From an uncultured Planctomycetales bacterium (lineage in GTDB: Bacteria; Omnitrophota; Gorgyraeia; Gygaellales; Profunditerraquicolaceae): a DNA stretch of 64,000 nt. Every line of letters starts with the position of its first letter. Positions within the stretch are counted from its first letter, which is position 1. Where the stretch lies: NCBI GenBank assembly GCA_964579435.1, contig CAZOGI010000001.1, positions 157,907 through 221,906 on the forward strand, in the 5' to 3' direction. Both the position numbers and the translations under genes were made by a program. This document shows positions 13,878 to 64,000 of this stretch, piece after piece. The notes beneath the pieces are model-generated. The model was not told where the DNA came from. It was given only the letters and a program-made list of their open reading frames with translations, and made no database searches.

Positions 13878-13898
13878 CGTGGCAGAGGAGGCGTCGTT

Positions 13899-42391: not shown

Positions 42392-42393
42392 CC

Positions 42394-43200
42394 TCAGCTA
42401 TTTATGGTTCCCGAAGAATTATCCAGACTGAAATCTGGCTTGGGTATTCCTAAAATCTCGCAGGCAAGCTCTTCATACTTTTGAGCGCCTAATGAATCCT
42501 TGTCATACAAAGAGATTGGTTTGCCGTAACTCGGTGCCTCTGTTAATCTTATGTTTCTTGGAATGACTGTTTTATAAACTTTTTCTCTAAAATACCCTCG
42601 CACCTCTTGAATAACTTCTTTGGTAAGATTTGTCCGGAAATCGGCCATAGTTAAAAGGACCCCTTCAATTTCCAGTCCGGGGTTGAGTGTTTCACGAACC
42701 AGCTTGACGGTATTCATCAGCTGCGTCAATCCTTCTAACGCATAATATTCGCACTGAACGGGAATGATAAGCGAGTCTGCCGCACAGAGCGCATTGATCG
42801 TCAGTAACCCCAGCGATGGCGGCGAATCGATGATCACGAAATCGAAATTGTTCTTTTCCTCGACAAGCGAGCGCTTCAGCTTATACTCGCGCCCCAGAGC
42901 TCCGACGAGCTCAACCTCTGCGCCGGTCAGGTCAAGATTTGCCGGCGCCACAAAGAAATTCGGGACCGCGGTTTCAACAACAACCCCCGCCAGCTTCTCC
43001 TCCTCCAAGAGAATATGGTATGTACTCTTCTTTACATCGTGCCGATTAATGCCTGCGCCGCTCGTTGCATTTGCCTGGGGGTCAAGGTCGATCAACAGAA
43101 CCCGCTTTTGCGCGCGCGCCAGATAGGCGGAAAGATTGATTGAAGTTGTCGTTTTCCCTGTTCCACCCTTCTGGTTGCAGATTGAAATTACCTTACCCAT
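42394..43200 (-). CDS. parA: Chromosome partitioning ATPase ParA/Soj
   Basis: Deviant Walker A NQKGGTGKTTTSINL, with IIDSPPSLG. Confidence 0.92.
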   Translation of the reverse strand: MGKVISICNQKGGTGKTTTSINLSAYLARAQKRVLLIDLDPQANATSGAGINRHDVKKSTYHILLEEEKLAGVVVETAVPNFFVAPANLDLTGAEVELVGALGREYKLKRSLVEEKNNFDFVIIDSPPSLGLLTINALCAADSLIIPVQCEYYALEGLTQLMNTVKLVRETLNPGLEIEGVLLTMADFRTNLTKEVIQEVRGYFREKVYKTVIPRNIRLTEAPSYGKPISLYDKDSLGAQKYEELACEILGIPKPDFSLDNSSGTINS

Positions 43201-43222
43201 TTAATTTCAAATAGTTACAAAT

Positions 43223-43238
43223 TGTTCCACGCGGAACA
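43223..43238. promoter_or_regulatory. parS-like 16-bp imperfect palindrome
   Basis: TGTTCCACGCGGAACA matches the consensus tGTTTCACGTGAAACa at 13/16 positions and lies 23 nt upstream of the parA start. Confidence 0.45.
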
Positions 43239-43273
43239 TTTTGATTGCCCTTGATTCTTTATCTATTGTCCTT

Positions 43274-43501
43274 TTATTTTGCCGGCTTGTCAAGTTTTTT
43301 GTCTGCTGCCGGAACTACGCTTACCCTTACCTTGGCTGGCTTTGCCCCCGCCATACCAAATAGCCCTCTTTCTTCCTCGCTAAGCACTTCTATCTTCACT
43401 TGCTTACGCGGGACCTTGAGCGCAACCAGGGCTTTATTAATAGCGTCCTCGAGATTTTTACCCTCAACCTCGATACTTTGAAATTCTTTATGCGGGGACA
43501 T
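43274..43501 (-). CDS. Jag/KhpB N-terminal-domain-only protein (75 aa)
   Basis: IEVEGKNLEDAINKALVALKVPRKQVKIEVLSEEERGLFG matches the Jag_N pattern. It sits in the canonical position after yidC. I place the start at ATG 43501. No KH or R3H domains are present. Confidence 0.6.
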   Translation of the reverse strand: MSPHKEFQSIEVEGKNLEDAINKALVALKVPRKQVKIEVLSEEERGLFGMAGAKPAKVRVSVVPAADKKLDKPAK

Positions 43502-45023
43502 TCTTGTACACTCTCGCTTGATAAATAAGCATGAGAAGGCTATTCGTGATCCAGTACAAAACAAGTCCGGAGGGAACGCGGTAAAACGCCATTCCAAAAA
43601 TTATCGGCATTAAGAAAAGCATCATCTTCTGCTGTTCATTGGCTCCAGCGGTTTTACTCATGGATATCTTCTGTTGAAAGAACATCGCAAGAGCCATGAG
43701 GATTGGTAATAAATTAATTTCGTTGCCTAAAAGCGGGAGGTGATTGGGCAAAAGCGCAATCCGGTCAGGCTCGGAAAGATCCTTAATCCAGAAAAACTCC
43801 GCACCTTTTAACGCAATAGAGCGAGGAAGCAGTTGAAGGAAGGCAACAAAAACGGGCATTTGCAATAACAGCGGCAAGCAGCCGCCCAAGGGATTGACTT
43901 TATGCTCCCGAAATAACTTCATTTGTTCTTGCTGAAATTTCTGGGGATTATCCTTATACAACTTCCTTAACTCTTCGAGTCGAGGTTGAATCATTTGCAT
44001 CTCTTTCATCGACTTTGTTTGCTTTATGGTCAATGGAAATAGCGCTATAAAAATTGTGCATGAAACGCCAATGATGGCCCATCCCCAGTTATTGAATAAC
44101 CTGTGGAAAAACTCAAGCAATTGAAGCAAAATTTGTGATATAAAATCAAAGGTTCCAAAATGAATAATCGACGCATACTCGGGATCAGCTTCTGAAAGCA
44201 GCTTTATAATCTGTGGGCCGGCAAATAATTTCAAATTTAACGCCTTCTTTTCTCCTGGTTTTAGCTCCATCAACGACTGCGGACTAAACGTCACCACAGA
44301 AACATTTTTATCCGGACGCGAGATTGATCCGTTAATTTTTACTGAATCATCAGATTGGACAATTAAAGCATAATATCTTGTTTTGAAAGCAATGAAGTCA
44401 ACATCTTTAAAGTCTGCCTTCTTTGAAGGAGCATAGGTAGTTGTATTATTTTTTTCCCTACTCACCACAACACTACTATATTGTAAATCGCTTGCCCCCT
44501 GCTTCAAATCAAAACTTCCCAGAACAACTGGAAAATTTACCGTACGAACATTACTTCCAATATTCTCAACTTCAAATTTAAGATTTCCTTGAACACTATT
44601 CTTAAAAGATAGAATCCTTTTAATTCTAAATTCTCTATCTTCACTAACCGAAATAATGGAATTATTAATTAAATTAGATTCACTAATAATAAAATTATTA
44701 TTAAACCCAACTATTTCTAAGGCATTAAATAACAACATGTTACCACCACCAAAAACTTTTCCAAACTTCAACTCAAACAATGACCCGGTTAAGCCATTAA
44801 ATACCGCCTTAAAATGTCCAAAGTTAAATTCCTTTTTGGACATTTCTTTAACATTTTGCAGATCGTTCTTTTTTATTTCTGGCGGGAGGATTTCTTTTGA
44901 AGACAGCGGCTCTTGTTCAGATCGCAGAAGGAGCGGGGACGGCTGTTGCTTTGGCAAAACGGACGACCAAATAAACAATACCACCGCTGACAAGAAAATA
45001 GCCAAAATCAGTCTTTTTTCCAT
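43488..45023 (-). CDS. yidC: Membrane protein insertase YidC
   Basis: N-terminal TM helix, a large periplasmic domain, and the conserved C-terminal core (NPLGGCLPLLLQMPVF..., LPILMA, VPSGLVLYW). Confidence 0.92.
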   Translation of the reverse strand: MEKRLILAIFLSAVVLFIWSSVLPKQQPSPLLLRSEQEPLSSKEILPPEIKKNDLQNVKEMSKKEFNFGHFKAVFNGLTGSLFELKFGKVFGGGNMLLFNALEIVGFNNNFIISESNLINNSIISVSEDREFRIKRILSFKNSVQGNLKFEVENIGSNVRTVNFPVVLGSFDLKQGASDLQYSSVVVSREKNNTTTYAPSKKADFKDVDFIAFKTRYYALIVQSDDSVKINGSISRPDKNVSVVTFSPQSLMELKPGEKKALNLKLFAGPQIIKLLSEADPEYASIIHFGTFDFISQILLQLLEFFHRLFNNWGWAIIGVSCTIFIALFPLTIKQTKSMKEMQMIQPRLEELRKLYKDNPQKFQQEQMKLFREHKVNPLGGCLPLLLQMPVFVAFLQLLPRSIALKGAEFFWIKDLSEPDRIALLPNHLPLLGNEINLLPILMALAMFFQQKISMSKTAGANEQQKMMLFLMPIIFGMAFYRVPSGLVLYWITNSLLMLIYQARVYKNVPA

Positions 45024-45039
45024 TGTTTGCCTTTATGCG

Positions 45040-45255
45040 CTAATGAGGCGGATCATAGAGTGGGCCGCGGGTAAAAGGATGGCACCGCAAAATGCGCCGG
45101 CAGGCTTTTAAGCCGCCACACCAAAAACCCCACCGGGAAATCGATTCCTTCGCATACTCCGAACAACTGGGGATATAACGACAGCTGGGCGGCAGGAGCC
45201 CGCGGAAAAACCGCTGATACGTCGCAAGGAACAAAAGCGCTATCCGTCGGCCCAT
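45040..45255 (-). CDS. yidD: Membrane protein insertion efficiency factor YidD
   Basis: CRYIPSCSEYAKESI...RILRCHPF..GPLYDPP. Confidence 0.9.
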   Translation of the reverse strand: MGRRIALLFLATYQRFFRGLLPPSCRYIPSCSEYAKESISRWGFWCGGLKACRRILRCHPFTRGPLYDPPH

Positions 45256-45393
45256 TTAAGCCGCCAGGCGCTTTCTGCCCTTTTTCCGACGACGGGCGAT
45301 CAATTGCCTCCCGGTGCGCGTGCTCATCCTCGCCCGAAAACCATGCTTGCGTTTTGCGACGATCTTGGTCGGCGTCTTCAGATTTTTTTTCAT
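45256..45393 (-). CDS. rpmH: 50S ribosomal protein L34 (45 aa)
   Basis: Hand translation gives [56 protein letters not shown] lies upstream. It is below the ORF-track cutoff. The stop TAA abuts the yidD ATG. Confidence 0.9.
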
Positions 45394-45566
45394 TTTGCTC
45401 TCCCTCGGTAAGTGGCAACTCCGTCGAATTGGGATAAATTATAACACATTGTTATCTCAAGTCAACACTAAATGTTTCGACTCTAGAAAAATCTGCAAAG
45501 CAAAACCCCGATGGGATTTTCTCGGGCGGCGCAAAACACAGAAGGGACTGTCGTTTCAATTTTATG

Positions 45567-45594
45567 TTGACTTCCCGAAAAGGGGCTGTATAAT
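45567..45594 (+). promoter_or_regulatory. Candidate sigma70 promoter for dnaA
   Basis: TTGACT (45567-45572), a 16-nt spacer, then TATAAT (45589-45594), about 95 nt upstream of the dnaA ATG. Confidence 0.45.
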
Positions 45595-45639
45595 AATCAA
45601 ACGATTTTAAAATACCTGTCCTTTTTAGCCTGACAAAAT

Positions 45640-45690
45640 CTTTCCACAGAGTTATTCAGTTTGTTGATAAACTGTGGATTCTGTGCACAT
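45640..45690. promoter_or_regulatory. Cluster of three DnaA-box-like 9-mers
   Basis: CTTTCCACA (45640-45648), TGTGGATTC (45673-45681, reverse complement GAATCCACA) and palindromic TGTGCACA (45682-45689). Each matches TTATNCACA at 7/9. Confidence 0.35.
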
Positions 45691-47038
45691 GAACACACAA
45701 GACCTTTCTCTTATATGGAATACCGTCCGGGATACGCTGCGGGAAAAGCTCGGCGAGACGGTCTTTGAAACCTGGATAGCGCCCCTCCAGTGCAAAAACC
45801 AGTCGAAAGAGACGGTAACCATTGAAGCCCCCGATATATTTTTCTGCGAATGGATAGAGAAACACTACAAACTTGCTCTTTCACAAGCCTTCGGAAGCGT
45901 CACCAAAAGCCAACCTTCGGTCCTCCTGGAGGTAAGCGGGCAGACGCCACGACCGACCATCCCAGCGCCGGAAACCGCGCCGGCACCTCCAGAGAGCGCC
46001 TTCGAGCCGCATGAACGCGCCGGGCTGAACCCCCGCTATACATTCGACAATTTCGTGATCGGACCTTCCAACCGCCATGCACACGCCTATTCCCTCGCCG
46101 TCGCCGAATCCCCGGCAAAGTCGTACAACCCCCTTTTCATCTACGGGGGAGTGGGGTTGGGCAAAACGCACCTGATGCAGGCGATCTGCCACCACATCCG
46201 GCAAAAAAACGGGCCGCAGACAAAGATCTGCTATACCTCATCGGAAAAATTCATGAATGAGTTGATTTTGGCGATCAAGGACCGCTCGACGCACGAGTTC
46301 CGGCAAAAGTATCGCGGCCTTGACGTGCTCGTGATCGACGACGTACATTTCTTTGCCGGCCGGGAGGCAACCCAGGAAGAGTTCTTTCACACCTTCAACG
46401 CGCTCTACGACGAACACAAACAGATCATCATGTCTTCCGACCGTCCACCCCGGGAAATCGCCAACTTACAGGATCGCCTGGTATCTCGTTTCGGTTGGGG
46501 GCTGGCCACGGATATCCAGCCGCCCGACATGGAAACGCGCGTGGCGATACTCAAGAAAAAGATCGAGCGCGAACCCGTCCAGGTCCCCGACGATGTTTTG
46601 TTCTTTATCGCTCAACTTATCCGCACCAATATCCGCGAACTGGAAGGTGCCCTGGTCCGTACGATCGCGTATGCGCTGCTCGAAGAAGAGCCGATCACGC
46701 TGGGGTTGGCAAAACATGTTTTAAAGGATCTCCTCAAAGAACCCAAAAAATTGATCACTGTCGACTTTATTCAACGCTGTGTCGCCGAAGAATTCGGGAT
46801 ATCTCTCTACGACCTCAAAACGAAGCGCCGCACCCGCACCATTGTATTGCCGCGACAGATCGCCATGTATTTGAGCCGGGAGTTGACCGATTTATCTTTT
46901 CCGGAAATTGGCGGTTTTTTTGGGGGGAAAGACCATACGACGGTTTTGCATGCGTGTAACAAAATCAAGGAAGTGGTACGTACGGATGAGGTTTTACAAA
47001 GGCAAATTGAACACATTATCACGGTTATTAAACAATGA
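45689..47038 (+). CDS. dnaA: Chromosomal replication initiator DnaA
   Basis: Walker A GGVGLGKTHL, a box VII/sensor region, and the C-terminal DNA-binding domain (R..IVLPRQIAMYLSRELT..S.PEIG..FGGKDHTTVLHA). I prefer ATG 45689 over GTG 45674. Confidence 0.93.
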   Translation: MNTQDLSLIWNTVRDTLREKLGETVFETWIAPLQCKNQSKETVTIEAPDIFFCEWIEKHYKLALSQAFGSVTKSQPSVLLEVSGQTPRPTIPAPETAPAPPESAFEPHERAGLNPRYTFDNFVIGPSNRHAHAYSLAVAESPAKSYNPLFIYGGVGLGKTHLMQAICHHIRQKNGPQTKICYTSSEKFMNELILAIKDRSTHEFRQKYRGLDVLVIDDVHFFAGREATQEEFFHTFNALYDEHKQIIMSSDRPPREIANLQDRLVSRFGWGLATDIQPPDMETRVAILKKKIEREPVQVPDDVLFFIAQLIRTNIRELEGALVRTIAYALLEEEPITLGLAKHVLKDLLKEPKKLITVDFIQRCVAEEFGISLYDLKTKRRTRTIVLPRQIAMYLSRELTDLSFPEIGGFFGGKDHTTVLHACNKIKEVVRTDEVLQRQIEHIITVIKQ

Positions 47039-47047
47039 TTGCAGGGG

Positions 47048-47170
47048 GTATACACAGTCCTTTTTTGTGGTAACTTTTTTAATAGGTGTGAGATCGGAGG
47101 TTTTAAACAGGAATGTAACCGCATTACTATAATACGATTACTATTTTTTTAAAATTACTTATTAATAGTA
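47048..47170. other. Candidate oriC element: DnaA boxes plus an AT-rich unwinding region in the dnaA-dnaN spacer
   Basis: GTATACACA (47048-47056) matches at 8/9 and TGTGGTAAC (47066-47074) at 6/9. An AT-rich stretch then carries three ATTACTWAT repeats (47123-47130, 47137-47144, 47154-47162). Confidence 0.45.
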
Positions 47171-47185
47171 GAAAAGGAGTGGTTG

Positions 47186-48277
47186 ATGAAAATTAAGGCG
47201 AACAAAGAACAATTACTAACCGGAATTCAAACGGTATTAAATGTCATCAGTCCAAAATCTGCTTTACCAATTCTTTCTAATATACTCTTGGAGACGCAAA
47301 CCGATACACTGCGTTTAACCGCCACAGATCTTGATATTGGTATAAGCTGTGAAATAGCGGTGAATAACCAGGAGTCAGGGTCAATAACCGTTCCGGCCAA
47401 GCGATTTTATGAAATTATCCGGGAGTTGCCTGCGGATGAGGCAGTTATTACCTCGAAAAAGAATAATCAGGTCCATATAGAAACGACGACCTGTCAATTT
47501 AAAATTATGGGCCTGGCGCGGGAAGAATTCCCCCGACTCCCGGAATTTAAAGACCGCAATGTTGTTTCTTTGGATCAGGATTTAATGAAACACATGCTTC
47601 ACCTGACCGCTTTTGCCGTATCAAACGATGAGTCGCGGTATATCCTCAATGGGATCTTGGTGCAACTTTCAAAAAACACCGTGAGTATGGTGGCAACCGA
47701 CGGAAAGCGGCTGGCGGTGATTGAGCAAAAGACAAAGAAGGGGAGCGAAAAACCCATTTCTTTTATCGTTCCCAGCAAAACCATTCAGGAGCTCAACCGT
47801 AATTTGGGTGACACCGGGGAGGTATCGTTTATTTTGGGGAACAACCAGGTGCTGTTCGACCTGGGCAAGGTGATCATTATTTCCCGCCTCATAGAAGGGG
47901 AATTCCCCGATTATAAACAGGTTATGCCGCCGGCATCGGAGCAGAAGATTAAGGTGGATCGCGAGGCGCTTCTCTTGGCGGTACGCCGCGCGGCGCTCTT
48001 GTCGACGGTCGATTACCAGGCGGTGAAGTGGGAGGTGTTCAAGAATAAACTGGTTATTTCCAAGTCGACCCCGGATATCGGGGAGTCGCGGGAAGAGTTG
48101 GCCGTCGACTATGCCGGGAAGGAGATGATCATCGGTTTTAATCCGAATTATCTGACCGATGTTTTGAAGAATCTGCAGCATCAACTCGTCGAATTCGAGG
48201 TGACGGACAGCGAAAAACCGGGCGTGGTGCGGACCGACGGGTATACGTATATCGTTCTACCGATGCGTCTCGGATAG
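47186..48277 (+). CDS. dnaN: DNA polymerase III beta sliding clamp
   Basis: Three-domain clamp pattern (LSNILLE, ATDGKRLAV, GFNPNYL). SD GGAG lies 6 nt upstream of ATG 47186. Confidence 0.93.
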   Translation: MKIKANKEQLLTGIQTVLNVISPKSALPILSNILLETQTDTLRLTATDLDIGISCEIAVNNQESGSITVPAKRFYEIIRELPADEAVITSKKNNQVHIETTTCQFKIMGLAREEFPRLPEFKDRNVVSLDQDLMKHMLHLTAFAVSNDESRYILNGILVQLSKNTVSMVATDGKRLAVIEQKTKKGSEKPISFIVPSKTIQELNRNLGDTGEVSFILGNNQVLFDLGKVIIISRLIEGEFPDYKQVMPPASEQKIKVDREALLLAVRRAALLSTVDYQAVKWEVFKNKLVISKSTPDIGESREELAVDYAGKEMIIGFNPNYLTDVLKNLQHQLVEFEVTDSEKPGVVRTDGYTYIVLPMRLG

Positions 48278-48285
48278 GGCGTCGC

Positions 48286-51025
<2,740 letters not shown>

Positions 51026-56290: not shown

Positions 56291-59200
56291 ATGCACACGA
56301 CCAGCGTGAAAAAGACAGCAACGTTCATCCTCGCAGGTATCCTGCTCTTTGCGCACTCCCTTGGTCCGCGCGCGCTCGAAGCGGCTGCTCTGTCTCCTGT
56401 GAGCGCCGAAACTGCCTGGTTGCCTCCAGGGAATGCCAGCGCCTCTTTGCGGGGACTTTCGTATGAGCAAGGGCAAAACTGCTTCCGTCTCCTGTTCGAG
56501 CGCGCCGCGATCGCGGGCATCGGCCCCGCTGAACTGGATTCCCTGACACGCCGGTTTCTGAATTATTTTTTCATCGCCCTGGCGCTTCCCGAAGAGTCGT
56601 TCTGGGTGAATCTGCGGCCGGATAAACCCGACGGCATTATCGATCCCGCGCTTGCGCAGACAGCGGTCGGCGCCATTCTCCTGGAGACCGACCTGTTGCT
56701 TAAACAGGATACTGCCCGCGCCACCGCGCCGGATACGGCATCGGGGAGGCTGTATTGGGAAAAGCTCTATCGCAAGGCGCAGGAGTTGTATGGTTCGGCG
56801 CAGGTCAGTATCCCCACGCTGTGCCGCCCTTGGATCGTGCCGGAGGAGATCGTCATGCGCATGACGGCGGGCAACGCGTACGTGTACAAGGCGACTTTGA
56901 AGGTGATGCTGGAGGAGGATTATATACAAGACACAAGTCACCTGTCACCAGACACCGGTGTGATGAGGCAGTATGCGTTCGCGGATGAGCGGGCGAAAGA
57001 GTTGAATGAGTACGCCGCACAACTGATGCGCGAACTGGTCGTGCCGGAGCTGACGCGCAAGGTGAACAACGGACGGGAGTACGCCGCCCTGCGGCAGGTC
57101 TATCAGGCGCTGATTCTGGCGCAGTGGTTCAAGCGGACGGTCCGTTCTGGCGGCGCGTTCGCGCCGCTGGTCAACGGCGGGGCCCCTTCGTCGTTGCGGC
57201 TGCGGTCGCCGCCGGATGTGCGCGGGTACTTCCGTGCGTACCAGCGGCTCGTCCGGCAGGGTGCGTATGATATGCGGGCCGGCGGTTATGCCGGGGGGGA
57301 GCGAGTGGCGCGCCGCTATTTTTCCGGGGGCATTGTCCTGCGCGCCGGACCCGCGATCGACGCGGGAGGCTTTTCCGGCACCAGCGCAACTTTTCCTCCC
57401 GCAGGAACCGCCGCCTTGACCGTCGAAGTGGAAGCGAGTATGTCCGCGCGGGAGGTCGGGCAACCGCAACGCATCGTTGCCGCTGTTGTCCAGCCGCAGG
57501 CCGATGCGGGGATAGCCAGCGACCACCATGCCGGCACGACGCGCGCGCAGCACCTGGCATTTCATCGCGGCGGAGATTTTGCCACGGTTTTGCGCTGGAT
57601 CGCACAAGAAGATCTGGGTCTGGTTGCCGGCAGCGACGGGTGGTTCGATCTGCGCCGGCGGTTACAGGAGGAGCCCCAGAGGCGCCTCGTTTTTGACGGT
57701 CTTGATCGGCGCGGGCAGAAACGGCATACCGAGCTGCGCCTGGAATCTGACGGCGCGCTGGTAGTGGTAGACAGCCGCCTGCGCAAGGACCATGCCGGGA
57801 GAGGCCAATTTGCAGTCTATGCGCGCAACGAAGGCAAGGTGGTGCATGAGCTCTCGGAGCTGCGGTCATGGGCGGCATATGCCCGGGATGAGCTGGGGAT
57901 CATCACTGCTGCCGAGATCAGGGACGGGAAGCTGGGGATACGGCTGCGCCGCTGGATGAACGGACTGGGCGAAGACGAAGCACGGGATTTTTCCGTCGGG
58001 TCGTTTGAGATCAGCCGCAGACAAAAGCGGATCCGGGAAAAAGCCGATACGTTCCATCGCGACGCGCTTATCGAAGAGTTCGTCTTTTGGGCAAAACGGC
58101 AGAGATTACTGGGCACGGCCCAGACGGCATGGGAGCAGCTCCAAGAGGTCTGCGCGCAGGCGGGCACGCGGCCGCAGGAGCTGTTCCGCAGGTACCGCGC
58201 GCAGGAAGGGGTTTTCGAAATCTCGCCCCTCATGCAGGCGCTCTTAACACAGACGGACTTGGCGAAGTACAACTTTTTCGGCCTCCTTTTTGTCACCCGC
58301 CAAAATCTGCTGTCGCCGCTTGCGGTGCGCATCGCCGCGAAAATGAGCACCTATCCTTTGGTCTATGATCCCGACGGGCTCATCGATATTGAGGTGCGCC
58401 TCGTGGAGTATCTGCGCGCGGCTTTGGCGGCAAACCAGGAGCTGTTGGGGCCAGAGGGGGTGCGGGAGTGTCTTGCCACCGCCGCTCCCGTGCTGAGCGG
58501 ATTCTATCCGCACATGCATCAGCATCCGCTGGCTTGGGTAAGCCGGTATACCCAGGCCGAAATGCGTATCCGCGTGCTGCTGGCGGTGCGTTCTCTTGAG
58601 GATCTGATTACGGACGGGCGGCTTCCCGAGGAGCTGATCGCTTATCTGCAGGAGATCGGCTCGCTTGATCCGCTCATCGCCTTGGCCGACGAAAAGCTCC
58701 TCGCCGATTTTGGGATGTCCCTCCCGGTCCGCATGCGCGCGTTGCGTCAGGAGTATCCGGATTTCGTGCGGCGGTACCGGCAGCGGCAGGCGCTGCTTCC
58801 GGAGCCGGAAGAGGCAGAGGAGGAATTTGATTTCATCATCGCTTCCTCTGGAGGCGCGCCGGAGGGGGAAGCCGCAGCATCAGCCGCTGCGCTGCGCAGC
58901 ATCCTTGCGCCGCATCTGCTGGTGCCCGTTGACCTGGAGTTGGTCCTGCAGGCTGTCGAGCGCTCTCCTCGCCGAGAGGCTGCGCTTCAGGCGGTCACCG
59001 TTCTGTGCCGGGAGTTCGTGCGCAATAAGGTTACCCCGATAGACAGCGCGTTGCTCTTGCGCAGCTGCGCCAAATCTTCCTCGTTGAGCGAGGCGGCGCG
59101 GCTCTTTGCCCAGCACCAGCGGTACCTGCGCGTACTGCGGCTGGACCCGCAGCAGCAGCCGGCGATCGTGCGCGCGATCGCCCTTTCGGCGCAACCGGCC

Positions 59201-61489
59201 GAAGCGGCCCGGCGCGCACTGGGGTTTATGGCCGGCAACGCCGGATGGCTGCGCGAGCACAGTCGTCAGCTGCCCTTTGAAACGGTCCGCCTCCTGTTTT
59301 CGGGGACGCTGCAGGAACCGCTTCCGGCATTCGTTTGCGCGACCGCGCCGGTCGGCCATTTGGCGGAGCGCGGCGCACTGGCGGTGCAGCTCAATACCCT
59401 GCCCCGCGCCGTTACGGAATACATCATCGCCTATCTGCAAACCGTCCCGCCGGAAAAACAGTTTTCCTCTGTGCGCGGAATTAAAGAGATGGTGCGCAAC
59501 GGCGGCATGCTTCCCGAGGATACCCTGCAGGACTGGGAGCTGCTCTTGAACCGCTATATTGCGGATTTCGCCTTCCTTGCCTGCCGGCCGCTGATCCTCC
59601 TGCAGCGGCGGCTCTTTCGCGCCGAAGCCTTGCCCGAAGATGGGCTGCTCTCGATCGCTGCGACGGGAGAGGAGGGGGTTGCCCTCCTGGCCGCCCGGGT
59701 TGCGGCGATTAAAGAGGAGCTGTTCCTGCGCAGACAGATCCGCGAGCAGGACCTGCGACATCCGGCTTTTAAGGCGCTTGTTGCCTGGATAACCGGGTTT
59801 TCCAGCGCCAGTTGGGGCCACGGTAAGAACGAAGGGATGGAGTTGGATTATTTCCTTGAGCGGTTCAGGGCCACCGCGGCTCCTCCCCTTGATGCCGCGT
59901 TAACACAGGCGCCGCCTTCGTCTTTCAGCGTCCGCCCGGAAAGGATCGAGTTTACCGAGGATGAACGGCAGATGTATTCCCGCTATCAGCGTATTTTCTC
60001 TCGGGCGCTCTTGTTGTACCATCAGGCCGGATCCGCCGAAGCGACTCTTATCGTTCTGAAAGAGGAGGCGCGCAAAGAGCTCCTGCGGGCAACACGGGAG
60101 CTTGAGCGCTCACGCAAAGAGAGAGGGGCCGGCGCCGTTCTGGAGCATCTGGCCCGCCGGCAGCGGGCCTTCGAGCGCGCGCAGGCTGGCGTCGCCGCGG
60201 CCGCGACCCTCGAATCGTTCTGCTGGGAGATCGTCTCCGGCGTGCCCGAGGTTCTGGAGCACAGTCCGCTCCTGCAGGAACAGGTGATCGTCGCGCTCCT
60301 GCAGGAGGCTTTCCGTCAGGATCCCGCAGCCCTGGAGCGCATTGCCGAGATCGAGCAGGAAGAGCTCAGTATGCGTTCGCTTGACAAGATCCTTGCCTTC
60401 AAAAACGACTATTTCAATAAGATCGAACCGCCCAACTCGATCTTAAACGAACGGCCGCCCCAGGAGGCCAAGCAGATACTGCGGGTCTTTCGCGTGTCGA
60501 TTTTCGAACAGGTGTATGCGCGCACCAAAACCGTCTCACCGCCCGAAGAGGAGCCGTTGGTGCTGCGCGGATTTCTCACCCGGGATATCCTGGGTGAGCT
60601 GGCCGGGGACATCGGCGACGCCTGCTATACGGCGTTGCCGCACATCATGAATTACCCGGCGATGGTCGGAGCGCTCATCTTCACGACCGGGCAAGGGCTG
60701 GATGCGCGTTTTGCCGGGTCGGTCCTTGTCCTGAAGAATTCCGTTGCGGGAAAGCCGGTGTGGATCCTGCGCGGCATCAATCCGCAGGAAGATGTCGTCG
60801 CCGATTACAGCGCCGCGGATTTCCTGGACGGGGTTCTGCGCACCTGCGTGGAGCTGGCGCAGGCGTATAATGCCGCCCGCCCGCCGCAGGAGCAGGTACA
60901 CCGGATCCTGACCCCGGCTCTCGACGAAGGAGCTCTCAGCAATCAGCGCAAGATCAATTCCGTCGTCAAACAGCGGATTGGGCGCAGCCGGGCAGTTATT
61001 CTCGACCACAAAGAGACGTTTAATTTTCACGACATCACCGCTGCCTGTAAAGAATTGGCGACGATCGTCCCTGCTGCCCCGGAGGCGCGTGCGCAGGTCC
61101 CGGGGCCGCTCGTTGCGCAGTCGATTGCCTCATCCCCCGCGCCGGCGCCTCAAGGGCCTGAGACGCAGGTGGGGGGGATAGATCTTCGTTCATTGCCGAT
61201 GTTATCTGAGACGGGCTGGACGGCTGCGCCTGTTCCGGGGCGGGGAGGCGTAGATCTGGAACAGGAGTGGCGGCGTCTGCACCACCTGCTTTCTGCGGGG
61301 ATCGCGCCCTCCGCGCGCAGGATAGCGGATTGTGCCGCCGCCTGCAGCCGCAGCCCGGCGTTTCGCCAGGAATTCAGAGAGCGTCTTCTCGGCTGTATCA
61401 GTCAGACCTTGCTCATCCAGGAGCGGCGCGGGTGCGCTACCGAACCGCTCCTGCAGCGGGCGCTGATCCTTCTGGACAACGCCGAGTGA
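56291..61489 (+). CDS. Giant exported protein of unknown function (1,732 aa)
   Basis: It is an uninterrupted 5.2-kb ORF. ATG 56291 gives MHTTSVKKTATFILAGILLFAHSLGPRALEA (signal peptide or anchor). The sequence is rich in Leu, Ala, Arg and Glu residues. I recognise no catalytic or repeat family. Its N-terminal ~330 aa are paralogous to the next gene. Confidence 0.7.
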   Translation: MHTTSVKKTATFILAGILLFAHSLGPRALEAAALSPVSAETAWLPPGNASASLRGLSYEQGQNCFRLLFERAAIAGIGPAELDSLTRRFLNYFFIALALPEESFWVNLRPDKPDGIIDPALAQTAVGAILLETDLLLKQDTARATAPDTASGRLYWEKLYRKAQELYGSAQVSIPTLCRPWIVPEEIVMRMTAGNAYVYKATLKVMLEEDYIQDTSHLSPDTGVMRQYAFADERAKELNEYAAQLMRELVVPELTRKVNNGREYAALRQVYQALILAQWFKRTVRSGGAFAPLVNGGAPSSLRLRSPPDVRGYFRAYQRLVRQGAYDMRAGGYAGGERVARRYFSGGIVLRAGPAIDAGGFSGTSATFPPAGTAALTVEVEASMSAREVGQPQRIVAAVVQPQADAGIASDHHAGTTRAQHLAFHRGGDFATVLRWIAQEDLGLVAGSDGWFDLRRRLQEEPQRRLVFDGLDRRGQKRHTELRLESDGALVVVDSRLRKDHAGRGQFAVYARNEGKVVHELSELRSWAAYARDELGIITAAEIRDGKLGIRLRRWMNGLGEDEARDFSVGSFEISRRQKRIREKADTFHRDALIEEFVFWAKRQRLLGTAQTAWEQLQEVCAQAGTRPQELFRRYRAQEGVFEISPLMQALLTQTDLAKYNFFGLLFVTRQNLLSPLAVRIAAKMSTYPLVYDPDGLIDIEVRLVEYLRAALAANQELLGPEGVRECLATAAPVLSGFYPHMHQHPLAWVSRYTQAEMRIRVLLAVRSLEDLITDGRLPEELIAYLQEIGSLDPLIALADEKLLADFGMSLPVRMRALRQEYPDFVRRYRQRQALLPEPEEAEEEFDFIIASSGGAPEGEAAASAAALRSILAPHLLVPVDLELVLQAVERSPRREAALQAVTVLCREFVRNKVTPIDSALLLRSCAKSSSLSEAARLFAQHQRYLRVLRLDPQQQPAIVRAIALSAQPAEAARRALGFMAGNAGWLREHSRQLPFETVRLLFSGTLQEPLPAFVCATAPVGHLAERGALAVQLNTLPRAVTEYIIAYLQTVPPEKQFSSVRGIKEMVRNGGMLPEDTLQDWELLLNRYIADFAFLACRPLILLQRRLFRAEALPEDGLLSIAATGEEGVALLAARVAAIKEELFLRRQIREQDLRHPAFKALVAWITGFSSASWGHGKNEGMELDYFLERFRATAAPPLDAALTQAPPSSFSVRPERIEFTEDERQMYSRYQRIFSRALLLYHQAGSAEATLIVLKEEARKELLRATRELERSRKERGAGAVLEHLARRQRAFERAQAGVAAAATLESFCWEIVSGVPEVLEHSPLLQEQVIVALLQEAFRQDPAALERIAEIEQEELSMRSLDKILAFKNDYFNKIEPPNSILNERPPQEAKQILRVFRVSIFEQVYARTKTVSPPEEEPLVLRGFLTRDILGELAGDIGDACYTALPHIMNYPAMVGALIFTTGQGLDARFAGSVLVLKNSVAGKPVWILRGINPQEDVVADYSAADFLDGVLRTCVELAQAYNAARPPQEQVHRILTPALDEGALSNQRKINSVVKQRIGRSRAVILDHKETFNFHDITAACKELATIVPAAPEARAQVPGPLVAQSIASSPAPAPQGPETQVGGIDLRSLPMLSETGWTAAPVPGRGGVDLEQEWRRLHHLLSAGIAPSARRIADCAAACSRSPAFRQEFRERLLGCISQTLLIQERRGCATEPLLQRALILLDNAE
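56898..56992 (+). repeat. 95-nt near-identical tract, copy 1 (partner at 62241-62335)
   Basis: 92/95 nt are identical between the two paralogous genes. The mismatches are A/G, A/G and G/A. By eye, the flanking coding sequence is only roughly two-thirds identical. Confidence 0.85.
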
Positions 61490-61645
61490 GCCTGCTTTGG
61501 AGCAAGCGCTTTCCGTAAAACCCGCCCCGCGTCTTGTATCACTTCTCCCAACGGCTATATTTATTATTGGCTGATAACCACCTTTTTCCGGAACGCTGCG
61601 CCTGCGCTGATTTGGTACGGCTGTTTCGGGATACGTCCTTTCCTT

Positions 61646-64000
61646 ATGGCTCGAAAAGCAATCTGTCTAGGGCTCTGCTGTATCCTGCTCCTGCAGCAAT
61701 CCGGGTTTACGCAAGCTGTGGCGCCGGCAAAGGCACCGGTGTTGCCGTTGCCGTCGAGCGCCTCGGGGGAACGGTTCAGGCCTGCGCACCTGCGGTCTCT
61801 GGGCTATGATGAGCGCCAAACGCACCTGGAGCTTATCGTTGACCGGGGAGATCAGAAACAGCCGGGCTCATCCGAAGCAACAGAAACGACCCGCCGCCTT
61901 CTTTCATTTTTCCTCATCGGCATCAGCCTGCCCGAGAGATCCTTCTGGGTGAACCTGCGTCCCGATACCCCGCAAGAGATCATTGATCCGCTTCTGGCCC
62001 AGACCGACGTCGGCAAGATCATGCTGGAGGCGGACCTGCAGCTCAAAAAAGATACGGCAGCCGCGACCTCTCCACAGACCCCGGGGGGGAAGGCGTATTG
62101 GGATAAACTGTACCGCAGGGCAGAAGAGCTTTTCGGCGGCAGCCGGATGTCCTTTCCCACTCTCTCTCGGCCCTGGATTGTCCCGGGGGAGATCATTGTG
62201 CGCGAGACTTCCCGGAACGCATACGTCTATAAAGCGACGCTGAAGGTGATGCTGGAGGAGGATTATATACGAGACACAAGTCACCTGTCACCGGACACCA
62301 GTGTGATGAGGCAGTATGCGTTCGCGGATGAGCGGCTCAGGCAGCTCAATGCCTACGCCGCGCAGCTGATGCGCGAGCTGATTATTCCGGAGCTGACGCG
62401 CAAAGTCAATACCGAGCGTTCGTATGCCCCGCTTCGCCAGGTGTATTATGCGCTGATCCTGGCGCAATGGTTTAAGCGGCGCTTCCGCGGCGCCGGCGGC
62501 CTTTACGCGGAAAGGATCGACAGCGCCGATCTGCTCGGTTTGCGCTCAGCGCAGACTGCCGACGTTCAGGAGTACTATAGGCGGTATCAACAATCGTTCC
62601 GGGACGGGGAATATCGTTTGCAGGCCCCTGCCTATTCGCTGTCCGGAAAAAGCGTGCGCCACTATTTTTCCGGGGGCATTCAGCCGCTCCCGTCCCAACT
62701 GCCGGCGCCCGGAAAATCCGAAACGCTTCCGGGCGGGGGGCTTTATTCCTCGGTTGATGCCAGCGCCCACAGGCGCTTGCCGCAGGACCCTGATCGCGGC
62801 CTGCGTTTTAGCGTCGGGGTGAGTCAAGCGCTGGCTCCTGTTCCGGGCCTGGAGCCGTCGGTTCCCGCAGCGGTCCCCGGGGCGCTGCTTGTCACCGCCG
62901 GGAGCACATACGCCCCAACGGCTTCTCCTCAAGAGAATGCGGAGGCGCTTGTGCGGCTGTTCCTGGGGATCGGTGCCGGCGAGGACCTCGCCGCAGCCCT
63001 CGAAGCGCAGTTTAAGGCCGATCCCACCGAGCTCCTCAACGCCGCGCGTGAAATGCAAGCGGCGCGCGCACTGCCATCTCTTTTTCAGGGCCGCAGGCAT
63101 TTCATCTCTTCGTTCTTTGCGGAAAACGACGCCGCAGGTGCCGCGGGCAAAGAGGTGCTGCAGGCGGCCGCCGAACGCCTTTTTGTTTTTCTTGTCGAAC
63201 ACATAGCCCAAGAAGATCATCAGCCGCCGGCTCCCGAAGCATCCCCAGAGGCGCTGATCCGCGCCGGCAACAAGGTGGTTCTTGAAGACGGAAGCAGCGT
63301 CCTCATAACCCACGCGATCAGCGTCGGCGAATCTCGCCCCGGGGAGCAGTCGCAAGACGGTCGCACTACGCGGCCTCAGGCGCACGCCTTCGGCGCCGAA
63401 GGCGTTTTTTACGGTCTCTACGTGCGCGACCGCGGCACCCGAACGATTTATCTGGATCGCGCCGGCCTTGCCGAACGCTTGCAGGATCCGCACCAGCGAC
63501 GGGCTTTTGCCCGCGTCCTGGGAAGGGAGTCATTCAGCATCGAAGATGCGGCGCGTTTCCTTGACGGACACGAGACGTTCCATGCCCTGGTTGATGAACT
63601 GCGTCTGCGGGAAGAGTTGCCCGAGATGAGCCAGGAGCAGGAGGAGGCATTGGCGGACCTGTTCGGCAGGGATTTTGCTTTCGGCGAGGTGACGCTGGAT
63701 ATTCGCCTGCAATCCTTGCTGACGAAGATGAGCAGGCTGCTGCGGGTGGATGTCGCGCGGGTGCTGCGCAAGAGAGGAACGATCGAAGAGGCGCTCGGCT
63801 ATCTGGGCATCTTTGTTTCCCTGGAGTGGTCGGTCTCCGGCAGCGAGCTTGCCCGCCTTGCCCGGGCGCCTGCGCCGGCGGGAGAGCGGCTGGTACGGCC
63901 TTTCCTGGTGACCGAGCGTACGGCCCTGACCCCTACGCCTAACCGCCGCGATAACGCTTTTGAAGACATGATCGCCCGCTCCAGCTCGCGTTCGCGCGCG
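61646..64000 (+). CDS. Second giant exported protein, paralogue of the preceding gene (first 785 aa; runs off the right edge)
   Basis: Hand translation from ATG 61646 gives MARKAICLGLCCILLLQQSGFTQAVAPA..., with no stop to position 64000. It is absent from the ORF track because it is open-ended. It shares FWVNLRPD, RPWIVP, NAYVYKATLKVMLEEDYI, RQVY.ALILAQWFKR and HYFSGGI blocks with the upstream gene. Confidence 0.65.
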   Translation, partial: MARKAICLGLCCILLLQQSGFTQAVAPAKAPVLPLPSSASGERFRPAHLRSLGYDERQTHLELIVDRGDQKQPGSSEATETTRRLLSFFLIGISLPERSFWVNLRPDTPQEIIDPLLAQTDVGKIMLEADLQLKKDTAAATSPQTPGGKAYWDKLYRRAEELFGGSRMSFPTLSRPWIVPGEIIVRETSRNAYVYKATLKVMLEEDYIRDTSHLSPDTSVMRQYAFADERLRQLNAYAAQLMRELIIPELTRKVNTERSYAPLRQVYYALILAQWFKRRFRGAGGLYAERIDSADLLGLRSAQTADVQEYYRRYQQSFRDGEYRLQAPAYSLSGKSVRHYFSGGIQPLPSQLPAPGKSETLPGGGLYSSVDASAHRRLPQDPDRGLRFSVGVSQALAPVPGLEPSVPAAVPGALLVTAGSTYAPTASPQENAEALVRLFLGIGAGEDLAAALEAQFKADPTELLNAAREMQAARALPSLFQGRRHFISSFFAENDAAGAAGKEVLQAAAERLFVFLVEHIAQEDHQPPAPEASPEALIRAGNKVVLEDGSSVLITHAISVGESRPGEQSQDGRTTRPQAHAFGAEGVFYGLYVRDRGTRTIYLDRAGLAERLQDPHQRRAFARVLGRESFSIEDAARFLDGHETFHALVDELRLREELPEMSQEQEEALADLFGRDFAFGEVTLDIRLQSLLTKMSRLLRVDVARVLRKRGTIEEALGYLGIFVSLEWSVSGSELARLARAPAPAGERLVRPFLVTERTALTPTPNRRDNAFEDMIARSSSRSRA
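62241..62335 (+). repeat. 95-nt near-identical tract, copy 2 (partner at 56898-56992)
   Basis: Same as copy 1. It encodes KVMLEEDYIRDTSHLSPDTSVMRQYAFADER. Confidence 0.85.

What the first reader, a model, noticed from the sequence alone, without database searches (positions are those of the whole stretch)
56291..64000. Tandem pair of very large, paralogous exported proteins with no recognisable family
Directly after the origin-proximal core genes (gyrA, glmS, rsmI) sit two co-oriented giant ORFs.

- The first (56291-61489) encodes 1,732 aa. The second starts at 61646 and is still open after 785 codons at the window edge; the ORF track misses it.
- Both begin with hydrophobic Sec-type leaders.
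- They share a conserved ~330-aa N-terminal module, by eye roughly two-thirds identical. Shared blocks are FWVNLRPD, LYW.KLYR, RPWIVP.EI, NAYVYKATLKVMLEEDYI, RQYAFADER, AAQLMREL..PELTRKVN, LRQVY.ALILAQWFKR and HYFSGGI.
- After that module they diverge into long Leu/Ala/Arg/Glu-rich sequence.
- I could not match either protein to any adhesin, toxin, S-layer, RHS, polymorphic-toxin or enzyme family from memory. There are no beta-repeat signatures.

Together the two genes take up at least 7.5 kb of otherwise very compact, housekeeping-dominated sequence. That makes them the best candidate in the window for an undescribed system, such as a surface or secreted machinery or an effector pair.
Basis: partly seen in the sequence, partly recalled or inferred. 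Interest (0 to 1): 0.7.

Follow-up and report, generated by a model that had tools for sequence, protein, structure and literature searches.

The report
Omnitrophota capped-cargo exported protein family
The two big genes are real members of a very large, apparently undescribed protein family of the little-known bacterial phylum Omnitrophota, in which a signal peptide, a conserved head domain and a conserved tail domain bracket a middle section that is swapped out even between closely related species.

Summary

They are not an isolated pair. The N-module defines a family of 7,770 50%-identity clusters, nearly all in Omnitrophota MAGs, and it always sits at the protein start.

It is a ~120-aa C-terminal cap with a GGIDxRxLP motif followed by a four-helix domain. 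ORF1 has it, as do 191 of 225 relatives.

The family plan is a Sec-type signal peptide (GFA|Q site), an N-cap, a variable middle of 115 to over 6,000 aa, and a C-cap. In relatives the middle carries phosphoesterase, GGDEF, methyltransferase, radical-SAM, M23 and other domains.

ORF1 sits at a conserved locus (gyrB-gyrA-glmS-rsmI-[gene]-pyrRBC). There, species with 93-98% identical gyrA, glmS and pyrB share only the caps.

My best reading is exported cap-and-cargo proteins. The caps would be common sorting or anchoring handles, and the middle a fast-evolving payload for host interaction. The architecture is shown; the mechanism is inferred.

The parts
56291..61489 (+). ORF1: complete family member, 1,732 aa (signal peptide, N-cap, cargo, C-cap)
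   Evidence: N-module HMM 479 bits at aa 7-360 and C-cap HMM 95 bits at aa 1615-1732 (1,734-aa numbering). Codon usage is native.
56291..56389 (+). ORF1 leader, aa 1-~33 (MHTTSVKKTATFILAGILLFAHSLGPRALEAAA). It has a KK n-region and a 13-aa hydrophobic run. It is divergent from the family consensus, and the cleavage site is uncertain.
   Evidence: The AF2 model places a helix at aa 4-23.
56432..57334 (+). ORF1 N-cap core, aa 48-348 (…LRGLSYE … FWVNLRPD … RPWIVP … AYVYKATLKVMLEEDY … LRQVY … YFSGGI)
57491..58120 (+). ORF1 cargo module A, aa 401-610. Invariant residues include H..xH, HAGR and HE..EL. The module recurs at other positions in P0003 (twice), P0004 and P0005.
   Evidence: No PDB or Pfam match.
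58121..59080 (+). ORF1 cargo, aa 611-930. In iterative search against the 225 fetched family proteins and 80 loci it matches nothing but itself; one BLASTP HSP to P0003 (ORF1 aa 402-858) overlaps its start.
59081..60550 (+). ORF1 cargo modules B1-B2, aa 931-1420, shared only with P0001 and P0002 (~30-32% identity)
60551..61090 (+). ORF1 cargo module B3, aa 1421-1600. It recurs in P0001, P0002, P0006, P0011, P0139 (at aa 5075) and L025. There is a weak lead to the macro-domain fold.
   Evidence: The profile against PDB hits alphavirus nsP3 macro domains at E 0.005. This is a lead only.
61127..61486 (+). ORF1 C-cap, aa 1613-1732: an S/P-rich linker, GGIDLRSLP at aa 1628, then a four-helix domain ending at the stop codon
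61490..61645 (.). 156-bp spacer between the two genes. No terminator-like or promoter-like consensus was found on the + strand.
61646..64000 (+). ORF2: second family member, truncated by the window edge (785 codons seen). Its C-cap cannot be checked.
   Evidence: N-module HMM 549 bits, aa 2-378
61646..61717 (+). ORF2 signal peptide, aa 1-22/24 (MARKAICLGLCCILLLQQSGFTQA), with the family's conserved c-region
61763..62680 (+). ORF2 N-cap core, aa 40-345
62780..64000 (+). ORF2 cargo (aa 379-785 and beyond), unrelated to ORF1's cargo. Part of it (aa 581-782) is shared with P0010 and P0200, including a conserved LDGHET(F/L)HA motif (HExxH, aa 642-646, nt 63569-63583).

Best explanation
ORF1 and ORF2 are two members of a phylum-wide Omnitrophota family of modular 'cap-and-cargo' proteins.

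**Shown.** Every complete member has four parts:
1. A short Sec/SPase-I-type signal peptide with a conserved ...QQSGFA|Q end.
2. A ~300-aa N-cap with strongly conserved sequence and no recognisable fold.
3. A middle region of 115 to more than 6,000 aa that differs completely between members, and even between species that share the same locus.
4. A ~120-aa C-cap (GGIDxRxLP motif plus a four-helix domain) that ends at the stop codon.

**Inferred.**
- The protein is exported through Sec and the leader is cut off.
- The two caps are common handles that present every paralogue to the same envelope partner. That partner could be a sorting, anchoring or outer-membrane secretion component encoded elsewhere.
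- The middle is the payload. It acts outside the producer's cytoplasm, either on its surface or on or in the host or prey cell.
- The payload diversifies rapidly by module shuffling and whole-gene replacement.

The specific payloads of ORF1 and ORF2 are uncharacterised modules. Leads are a His-rich module A and a possibly macro-like module B3 in ORF1, and an HExxH module in ORF2.
For: **Family and architecture**
- The N-module profile finds 7,770 cluster representatives (6,492 at E<=1e-30). Each of the 150 listed has a single match starting at aa 1-61, and their lengths are 410-7,391 aa.
- There are 431 confirmed loci in GTDB species representatives. The top 80 are almost all Omnitrophota.
- Of 225 fetched proteins, 191 have both caps. 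The C-cap ends a median of 3 aa before the stop.
- The minimal member, P0160 (609 aa), is N-cap, linker and C-cap only.

**Signal peptide**
- 207 of 225 proteins carry the c-region motif, with predicted cleavage near aa 25.
- Position -3 is Gly in 186, -1 is Ala in 193 and +1 is Gln in 199.
- The n-region has a median net charge of +3, and the hydrophobic run is about 12 aa, too short for a membrane anchor.
- 189 of 225 have no other TM-like segment.

**Export-like composition**
- Family proteins contain 0.36-0.39% Cys against 1.22% in neighbouring genes (Mann-Whitney p 4e-28).
- The N-cap has 0.1% Cys and the C-cap 1.9%, concentrated at conserved positions.

**Variable payload**
- Precomputed Pfam domains in the middles of relatives include Metallophos+FHA, GGDEF, HATPase_c, several methyltransferases, radical SAM+B12, PPDK_N, M23, NUDIX, HAD, DnaJ, ABC1, GNAT and TPR/HEAT.
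- ORF1's modules recur at different positions in other members.

**Turnover at a fixed locus**
- The order gyrB-gyrA-glmS-rsmI-[gene] occurs in 17 of 80 loci, and pyrR-pyrB(-pyrC) follows in all 6 where the gene is complete within the locus.
- L013, L033 and L051 have gyrA, glmS and pyrB 93-98% identical. Their family genes (1,454, 1,591 and 2,545 aa) align only over the N-cap (66-78%) and the C-cap (71-77%).

**Lifestyle context**
- Omnitrophota are ultra-small and host-dependent or predatory (PMC10066038).
- Their giant proteins carry the same kinds of enzyme domains and are mostly predicted to be membrane-targeted or extracellular (10.1101/2023.11.21.568195; 10.64898/2026.06.07.730766).
Against: - No experiment or dedicated predictor (SignalP, DeepTMHMM) was available. 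Export rests on sequence statistics.
- Many payload domains in relatives need ATP, SAM, NTPs or Fe-S clusters (radical SAM, HATPase, GGDEF, NDK, DnaJ). These would not work in a periplasm or on a surface, and Sec export would prevent Fe-S loading. This favours either delivery into another cell or a cytoplasmic location.
- No secretion, sorting or partner gene recurs next to family genes, so the proposed partner of the caps is hypothetical.
- The caps have many invariant charged residues. They could be catalytic rather than handling modules.
- ORF1's own leader lacks the family consensus, and ORF1 is less Cys-poor (0.92%) than the family.
- The N-cap model is only moderately confident (mean pLDDT 69), so 'no known fold' is provisional.
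Confidence: 0.5

Rival explanations
1. Self-assembling coat. On this view the phylum's giant proteins are a covalent version of the same idea.
For: - Both caps are present together in nearly every complete member, and they are equally conserved across the paralogues of one genome (~61% for the N-cap).
- A cargo-less member made only of the two caps and a linker exists (P0160).
Against: - No test of an N-cap/C-cap interaction was possible.
- Nothing in the models suggests a polymerising fold: the C-cap is a generic small helical bundle.
- Enzyme cargo that depends on cytoplasmic cofactors is hard to explain in a coat.
Confidence: 0.2
2. Cytoplasmic, membrane-tethered multi-enzyme proteins. The N-terminal hydrophobic helix is not cleaved. 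It tethers the protein at the inner face of the membrane, the caps organise or regulate, and the enzyme domains work in the producer's own cytoplasm.
For: - The cargo repertoire in relatives is dominated by enzymes that need ATP, SAM, NTPs or Fe-S clusters.
- West-Roberts et al. noted that some predicted extracellular localisations of such domains in the giant proteins 'seem highly unlikely' (10.1101/2023.11.21.568195).
Against: - The positive n-region followed by a ~12-aa hydrophobic run and a G-x-A|Q site is the pattern of a cleaved Sec signal. It is not an N-out/C-in anchor.
- Strong Cys depletion relative to neighbouring cytoplasmic proteins.
- M23 peptidoglycan peptidases are among the cargoes.
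- Turnover between close relatives is atypical of housekeeping metabolism.
Confidence: 0.15
3. Divergent members of a known secretion-substrate or surface-protein class: two-partner-secretion TpsA, autotransporter, T9SS cargo, RTX/MARTX, Rhs/polymorphic toxin, or SLH/CWB2-anchored wall proteins.
For: The general logic is the same: a signal peptide, conserved trafficking or anchoring ends, a variable payload and many paralogues.
Against: - No Pfam or NCBIfam hit to any family of these classes at E<=1, even for canonical members.
- The N-cap model is helices plus two beta-hairpins, not a beta-helix.
- The C-cap is four helices, not a beta-barrel or beta-sandwich.
- No transporter gene lies adjacent.
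Confidence: 0.04
4. Assembly artefact, pseudogene or chance ORFs.
For: High-GC DNA produces long spurious ORFs, and many overlap these genes on the other strand. In MAGs, family genes often lie at contig ends or are split.
Against: - Frame-specific native codon usage.
- Thousands of homologues with the same end-to-end architecture.
- Conserved synteny.
- ORF1 has both caps intact, with no frameshift.
Confidence: 0.01

Closest known systems
Archaeovorin-type giant proteins of Omnitrophota (West-Roberts et al. 2023, bioRxiv 10.1101/2023.11.21.568195; Nielsen & Lui 2026, bioRxiv 10.64898/2026.06.07.730766)
   Same: Same phylum. Signal peptides, 'N-terminal regions lacking identifiable domains', and a mosaic of methyltransferase, HATPase, radical-SAM, NUDIX, HAD, GGDEF, PPDK_N and HEAT/TPR domains, as seen in the middles of this family's members. 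Sequences are poorly conserved.
   Different: [quoted passage not shown] This family is 0.6-7.4 kaa, and 189 of 225 members have no TM-like segment after the leader. The conserved N-cap/C-cap bracket is not described in either paper as far as I read and searched. Whether giant proteins start with the N-cap was not tested. ORF1 and ORF2 themselves carry no recognised enzyme domain.
Cell-wall-anchored paralogue families: SLH-domain exoproteins, and the Clostridioides difficile CWP family with CWB2 repeats (from my own knowledge)
   Same: Many paralogues per genome. Each has a signal peptide, a conserved anchoring module and a different functional domain.
   Different: No SLH or CWB2 profile hit. 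Here there are two conserved modules, one at each end. The organism is predicted to be diderm. Many payloads in relatives are cytoplasm-type enzymes.
Two-partner secretion TpsA proteins with an N-terminal TPS domain (from my own knowledge)
   Same: A signal peptide followed by a conserved ~250-300-aa N-proximal domain on very large proteins whose distal parts vary. In TpsA that domain is the recognition handle for the outer-membrane transporter.
   Different: No TPS-domain profile hit. The predicted fold is not a beta-helix. No adjacent TpsB. An extra C-terminal cap is present.
MARTX toxins and polymorphic toxin systems (from my own knowledge)
   Same: Conserved delivery regions bracket (MARTX) or precede (polymorphic toxins) swappable effector domains, with rapid cassette exchange between strains.
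   Different: No RTX or Rhs repeats, no cysteine-protease processing domain and no T1SS, T6SS or immunity genes nearby. The proteins have a Sec leader. Toxicity is not indicated.

Membership tests
Omnitrophota cap-and-cargo family (defined here by profiles A1 and A2) | N-cap profile match at the very N-terminus, after a leader | tested here: met
   ORF1 479 bits (aa 7-360) and ORF2 549 bits (aa 2-378). FWVNLRPD, RPWIVP, YKATLKVMLE, LRQVY and YFSGG are present in both.
Omnitrophota cap-and-cargo family (defined here by profiles A1 and A2) | C-cap (GGIDxRxLP plus helical domain) ending at the stop codon | tested here: met
   Met for ORF1: 95 bits at aa 1615-1732 (1,734-aa numbering), GGIDLRSLP at aa 1628 (1,732-aa numbering). 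For ORF2 this cannot be tested, because its 3' end lies beyond the window.
Omnitrophota cap-and-cargo family (defined here by profiles A1 and A2) | Conserved signal-peptide c-region ..QQSGFA|Q | tested here: inconclusive
   ORF2 has QQSGFTQ (met). ORF1 has a divergent leader (…LLFAHSLGPRALEAAA) with plausible but different small-residue sites.
Sec/SPase I signal peptide | Positive n-region, 7-15-aa hydrophobic core, small residues at -3 and -1 | tested here: met
   ORF2 has RK, then CLGLCCILLL, then G-F-T|Q or T-Q-A|V. ORF1 has KK and a 13-aa core. No dedicated predictor or experiment was available.
Two-partner secretion TpsA | TPS domain (beta-helix; Pfam Haemagg_act, named from memory) and an adjacent TpsB | tested here: not met
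   No Pfam hit to this family at E<=1. The model is alpha plus two hairpins. No recurrent transporter neighbour.
Autotransporter (type V) | C-terminal beta-barrel translocator | tested here: not met
   The C-terminus is a four-helix domain. No Pfam hit to this family.
T9SS cargo | C-terminal beta-sandwich CTD (Por_Secre_tail / TIGR04183, named from memory) | tested here: not met
   No Pfam or NCBIfam hit to this family. The C-cap is helical.
RTX/MARTX and Rhs/polymorphic toxins | Gly-Asp nonapeptide or RHS/YD repeats, processing protease, cognate secretion and immunity genes | tested here: not met
   No profile hits to these families. No repeats were noted. Neighbours are housekeeping genes.
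SLH/CWB2-anchored wall proteins | SLH or CWB2 repeat modules | tested here: not met
   No Pfam hit to these families at E<=1.
Archaeovorin-type giant proteins | More than 10-30 kaa, many TM helices, multi-enzyme mosaic | tested here: not met
   ORF1 is 1,732 aa, with at most one borderline hydrophobic window (aa 871) and no recognised enzyme domain. Relatives reach 7.4 kaa. A shared N-terminus with true giants was not tested.
Anti-phage defence or phage protein | Match to PADLOC or PHROGs models, or viral folds | tested here: not met

The most novel reading that the evidence does not exclude
The caps are the signature of a phylum-specific protein-delivery route. Every protein bracketed by the N-cap and C-cap would be a substrate that these ultra-small episymbionts or predators pass into the cytoplasm of their host or prey. 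There, the ATP-, SAM- and Fe-S-dependent payload domains would become active. On this reading the cap profiles enumerate the whole, rapidly evolving effector repertoire of Omnitrophota, and the caps (two folds with no known relatives) are a new kind of translocation handle.
Probability: 0.2. Interest if true: 0.9.

Novelty: new variant of a known kind. Interest (0 to 1): 0.62.

Why it matters
Omnitrophota are widespread, mostly uncultured, ultra-small bacteria thought to live on or prey on other microbes. How they act on their hosts is unknown, and attention has focused on their unwieldy giant proteins.

- **A tractable family.** This family is large (7,770 clusters) and sharply defined. Its members are of experimentally manageable size, and they carry the same kinds of enzyme domains between two conserved caps.
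- **Practical tools.** The cap profiles give a simple way to list these proteins in any genome. They define two new domains for structural work and give clear constructs for export and localisation tests.
- **An evolutionary signal.** Wholesale payload replacement at a fixed chromosomal slot between near-identical genomes is the kind of signal seen in host-interaction and conflict genes.

If the caps prove to be sorting or delivery handles, they would open the host-interaction biology of a whole phylum.

Tried and rejected
**Curated libraries.**
- Pfam, NCBIfam, PADLOC and PHROGs on ORF1, ORF2 and canonical members found nothing for either cap.

**Sequence against PDB.**
- A single-sequence search found nothing.
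- The N-cap profile gave only adenovirus penton at E 0.03, treated as chance.
- The C-cap profile hit a designed PPR repeat protein at E 2e-7, but no single stretch was significant. I read this as a repeat-summed helical-hairpin resemblance.

**Fold searches.**
- Foldseek against BFVD found nothing.
- The afdb50 library was not available.

**Extending the contig.**
- ORF1 is not on record by exact look-up.
- rsmI is found only on a 4.5-kb Logan contig that ends before ORF1.
- ORF2's 3' end was therefore not recovered.

**Homologues of ORF1's middle.**
- The word-indexed search returned one protein.
- Local iterative searches showed only sporadic sharing.

**Reverse search with the C-cap profile.**
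- It returned only short proteins. The two I looked up were a contig-edge fragment and a split gene.
- It could not test whether the C-cap ever occurs without the N-cap.

**Ideas considered and dropped.**
- Recent duplication or gene conversion: the N-cap DNA of ORF1 and ORF2 is only 73% identical.
- A lipoprotein signal: there is no lipobox.
- Orthology of syntenic copies: N-cap identity is ~61-63% whether or not the copies are syntenic.
- A neighbouring secretion system: the window and related loci hold housekeeping genes.
Full report
**1. The observation**

ORF1 (56291-61489, 1,732 aa from the ATG; a TTG lies two codons upstream) and ORF2 (61646 to the window edge, 785 codons still open) are present as described. 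BLASTP between them gives 53% identity over 368 residues (E 5e-111) and nothing significant afterwards. No third copy is in the window.

Both genes use the codon preferences of the adjacent gyrB, gyrA, glmS and rsmI genes in the annotated frame only (r 0.80-0.83, against no more than 0.23 out of frame; GC3 0.70-0.74). They are therefore native coding genes and not high-GC chance ORFs.

Pfam, NCBIfam, PADLOC, PHROGs and the PDB sequence search give no meaningful hit. The best are a sub-threshold PqqD match for ORF2 (E 0.059) and 3jvd for ORF1 (E 0.24).

**2. The organism and the locus**

The window holds a replication-origin neighbourhood:
- parB and parA.
- yidC, with Pfam 60KD_IMP.
- dnaA, dnaN, gyrB, gyrA, glmS and rsmI.
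- A cumulative GC-skew minimum and a GC dip at ~44-48 kb.

dnaA, dnaN, parA and parB were named from sequence inspection only. The housekeeping proteins are up to 84% (GyrA), 80% (GyrB), 70% (GlmS) and 68% (RsmI) identical to those on Omnitrophota MAG contigs that carry homologues of ORF1. The window is therefore from an Omnitrophota genome with unusually high GC (~61%). The genome itself is not in the collections searched: the best N-module identity is 51-52% and the exact-protein look-ups failed.

**3. A very large family**

A search with ORF1 returned 371 proteins. Those with a source name are almost all labelled Candidatus Omnitrophota or Omnitrophica. They are 1,000-3,000 aa long, and most match only ~17-22% of the query.

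A profile of the N-terminal module (alignment A1, 68 invariant columns), scored against 1.84 billion representatives, finds 7,770 clusters at E<=1e-3 and 6,492 at E<=1e-30. In all 150 listed, the module is a single match that starts at residue 1-61. These proteins are 410-7,391 aa long.

In GTDB species representatives, 431 loci were confirmed. The best 80 are almost all Omnitrophota. A few carry other labels ('Planctomycetales', Thermodesulfovibrionia, Margulisiibacteriota) that I could not verify and suspect reflect binning or labelling. At least 14 assemblies contribute two loci to the top 80.

**4. The missed second module and the family plan**

Nearly every homologue also matches ORF1 aa ~1605-1732, at its own extreme C-terminus.
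- Of 225 fetched proteins, 191 have both profile matches.
- The C-cap ends a median of 3 residues before the stop.
- The 34 proteins without it are probably contig-end fragments (examples).
- The C-cap consensus is GGIDFRxLPIVTQ, then ~25 variable residues, then NLxxEWxxIxxMxxAGIxPSxERIKEYLxASC…CIADILRxEEE…LKDILVLLES.
- The shortest complete member, P0160 (609 aa), is leader, N-cap, a ~115-aa Ser/Pro-rich linker and C-cap.

The plan is therefore leader, N-cap, variable middle, C-cap. ORF1 has all four parts. ORF2 has the first three up to the window edge.

**5. The leader**

In 207 of 225 proteins the leader ends in a conserved motif.
- Gly is at -3 (186), Ala at -1 (193) and Gln at +1 (199), near residue 25.
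- It is preceded by an n-region of median net charge +3 and an uncharged run of ~12 residues.

This is the pattern of a cleaved Sec/SPase I signal, and it is too short for a membrane anchor. After the leader, 189 of 225 proteins have no TM-like segment.

Family proteins are strongly cysteine-poor (0.36-0.39% against 1.22% in neighbouring genes, p 4e-28). The N-cap has 0.1% Cys. The C-cap has 1.9%, concentrated at a few conserved positions. This fits exported proteins but is indirect. ORF2 has the canonical QQSGFTQ. ORF1's leader is divergent.

**6. Structure**

AlphaFold2 on A1 gives a moderately confident N-cap.
- Mean pLDDT is 69 and pTM 0.69. The core at aa 50-320 has pLDDT 80-90.
- The model has two beta-hairpins and six to seven helices.

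**7. The middle is payload, and it turns over fast**

Among the 120 best homologues, about 50 carry precomputed Pfam domains in the middle. These include:
- Metallophos with or without FHA, GGDEF, and HATPase_c variants.
- Several methyltransferase families, and radical SAM with a B12-binding domain.
- PPDK_N, peptidase M23 and M48, NUDIX and HAD.
- DnaJ, ABC1, NDK, CheR and GNAT.
- Glycosyltransferase 9, PGM/NTP-transferase, and TPR/HEAT.

ORF1's middle has no recognised domain. Its pieces recur sporadically, and at different positions, in a handful of members:
- Module A (aa 401-610) occurs in P0003 (twice), P0004 and P0005.
- B1-B2 (aa 931-1420) occur in P0001 and P0002.
- B3 (aa 1421-1600) occurs in six others, including at residue 5075 of a 6,439-aa protein.
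- aa 611-930 matches nothing but itself in the iterative search. An earlier BLASTP HSP to P0003, covering ORF1 aa 402-858, overlaps its start.

Three leads remain untested:
- The B3 profile weakly matches alphavirus macro domains (E 0.005).
- Module A has invariant His/Glu motifs and no match.
- ORF2's cargo shares an HExxH-containing module with P0010 and P0200.

**8. Conserved slots, replaced contents**

In 17 of 80 related loci the family gene lies directly after rsmI, preceded by glmS, gyrA and gyrB as in the window. In all six loci where the gene is complete, pyrR and pyrB follow, and pyrC too in the five where the locus reaches that far.

None of these syntenic genes shares any similarity with ORF1's middle. 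In three close relatives (GyrA 94-98%, GlmS 93-94% and PyrB 95-97% identical) the genes are 1,454, 1,591 and 2,545 aa. They align only over the N-cap (66-78%) and the C-cap (71-77%).

A second slot, upstream of a UvrD-like helicase, behaves the same way, with partial sharing of modules in a different order.

N-cap identity is ~61% whether copies are compared within a genome, between genomes, or between syntenic and non-syntenic copies. Orthology is therefore not traceable, and whole-gene replacement or old paralogy is likely. The window's tandem arrangement is unusual: two or three of 81 loci including the window, and one of the other two (L063) looks like a single split gene. The two N-caps are only 73% identical in DNA, so the duplication is old.

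**9. Interpretation**

What is shown is the architecture, the distribution, the leader statistics, the absence of known relatives and the turnover pattern. The rest is inferred:
- The proteins are exported.
- The two caps, which are the only constant parts, are common handles for sorting, anchoring or further secretion by machinery encoded elsewhere.
- The middle is a fast-evolving payload used outside the producer's cytoplasm.

The main difficulty is that many payloads in relatives depend on cytoplasmic cofactors. That either favours delivery into another cell (the most novel reading; I give it ~0.2) or argues for a cytoplasmic, tethered location (rival, ~0.15). A head-to-tail self-assembling coat is a further rival (~0.2).

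Known classes with similar logic were each tested by profile, predicted fold and neighbourhood, and none fits. The classes were TpsA, autotransporters, T9SS cargo, MARTX/Rhs and SLH/CWB2 wall proteins.

**10. Literature**

- Seymour et al. 2023 (PMC10066038) describe host-dependent traits and poorly conserved giant ORFs.
- West-Roberts et al. 2023 (10.1101/2023.11.21.568195) define 'Archaeovorin' giant proteins with the same domain repertoire, and note N-terminal regions without identifiable domains.
- Nielsen & Lui 2026 (10.64898/2026.06.07.730766) catalogue proteins of 10 kaa or more and their SP/TM topologies.

In the sections I read and the term searches I ran, none describes this N-cap/C-cap family of 0.6-7 kaa proteins or the rsmI-pyrR slot. 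I cannot exclude a description elsewhere.

**11. Verdict**

This is a real and well-defined family that appears undescribed. Its architecture resembles known cap-plus-payload exoprotein designs, but it is built from two unrecognised domains. ORF1 and ORF2 are ordinary, somewhat divergent members of it. Interest is moderately high at the level of the family, and lower for the specific pair.

Noticed in passing
L013, L033, L051 (genes flanking the family gene): Between three close relatives, the genes immediately next to the variable gene are much more divergent (RsmI 69-86%, PyrR 83-91%) than genes one or two positions further out (GyrA 94-98%, GlmS 93-94%, PyrB 95-97%). It looks as if replacement tracts extend into the flanks, which would mark a recombination hot spot.
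   Followed up: partly
window 42000-48300: Origin region. GC falls from ~0.61 to 0.43-0.48, and cumulative GC skew reaches its minimum near 44-48 kb. The genes are parB (41531-42391, -), parA (42394-43200, -), yidC (43488-45023, -; Pfam-confirmed), a 650-bp gap, then dnaA (45674-47038) and dnaN (47183-48277). dnaA, dnaN, parA and parB were named from sequence inspection only.
   Followed up: partly
window 63569-63583 (ORF2 aa 642-646): An HExxH motif (LDGHETFHALV) is conserved in the only two relatives of this cargo module (P0010 and P0200). It could be a zincin-type metallopeptidase payload. No profile support.
   Followed up: partly
window 60551-61090 (ORF1 aa 1421-1600, module B3): A profile of seven copies weakly matches alphavirus nsP3 macro domains in PDB (E 0.005, 62 residues). 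The domain could be ADP-ribose-binding or hydrolysing. There is no structural test.
   Followed up: partly
window 57491-58120 (ORF1 aa 401-610, module A): A mobile ~190-aa module has invariant residues H..xH, D, HAGR, Y, K and HE..EL. It looks like a metal-dependent active site. Nothing matches in Pfam or PDB.
   Followed up: partly
family-wide; ORF1 aa 343-347 and 1628-1632: The N-cap ends in an almost invariant YFSGG(I), and the C-cap begins with an invariant GGID(F/L)R.LP. The payload is thus bracketed by two Gly-Gly motifs next to Ser/Pro-rich linkers. This could mark processing sites (double-glycine peptidases of the C39 type occur in the phylum's giant proteins according to West-Roberts et al.), but that is pure speculation.
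   Followed up: no
P0227-P0283; L082, L083; L063 9842-13726: The C-cap profile search returned only short proteins, most on contigs of a few kb or less. Of the two looked up, one lies at the very start of its contig (L082) and the other is split into consecutive ORFs (L083). L063 also carries a split family gene. The conserved caps probably break metagenome assemblies, so the family is under-counted and often mis-called.
   Followed up: partly
window 3137-5902 (-): A 922-aa protein with TPR repeats, DUF3857 and a transglutaminase-like core. It is unrelated to the finding.
   Followed up: no
window 12468-13916 (-) and 21599-23551 (-): A stand-alone B12-binding radical-SAM enzyme and a GH39-like glycoside hydrolase. 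These domain types also occur as payloads in the giant and capped proteins of the phylum.
   Followed up: no
L016 6411-14656: This is the only clear second tandem pair of family genes among the 80 related loci. Its N-caps are 55% identical, as in the window.
   Followed up: no
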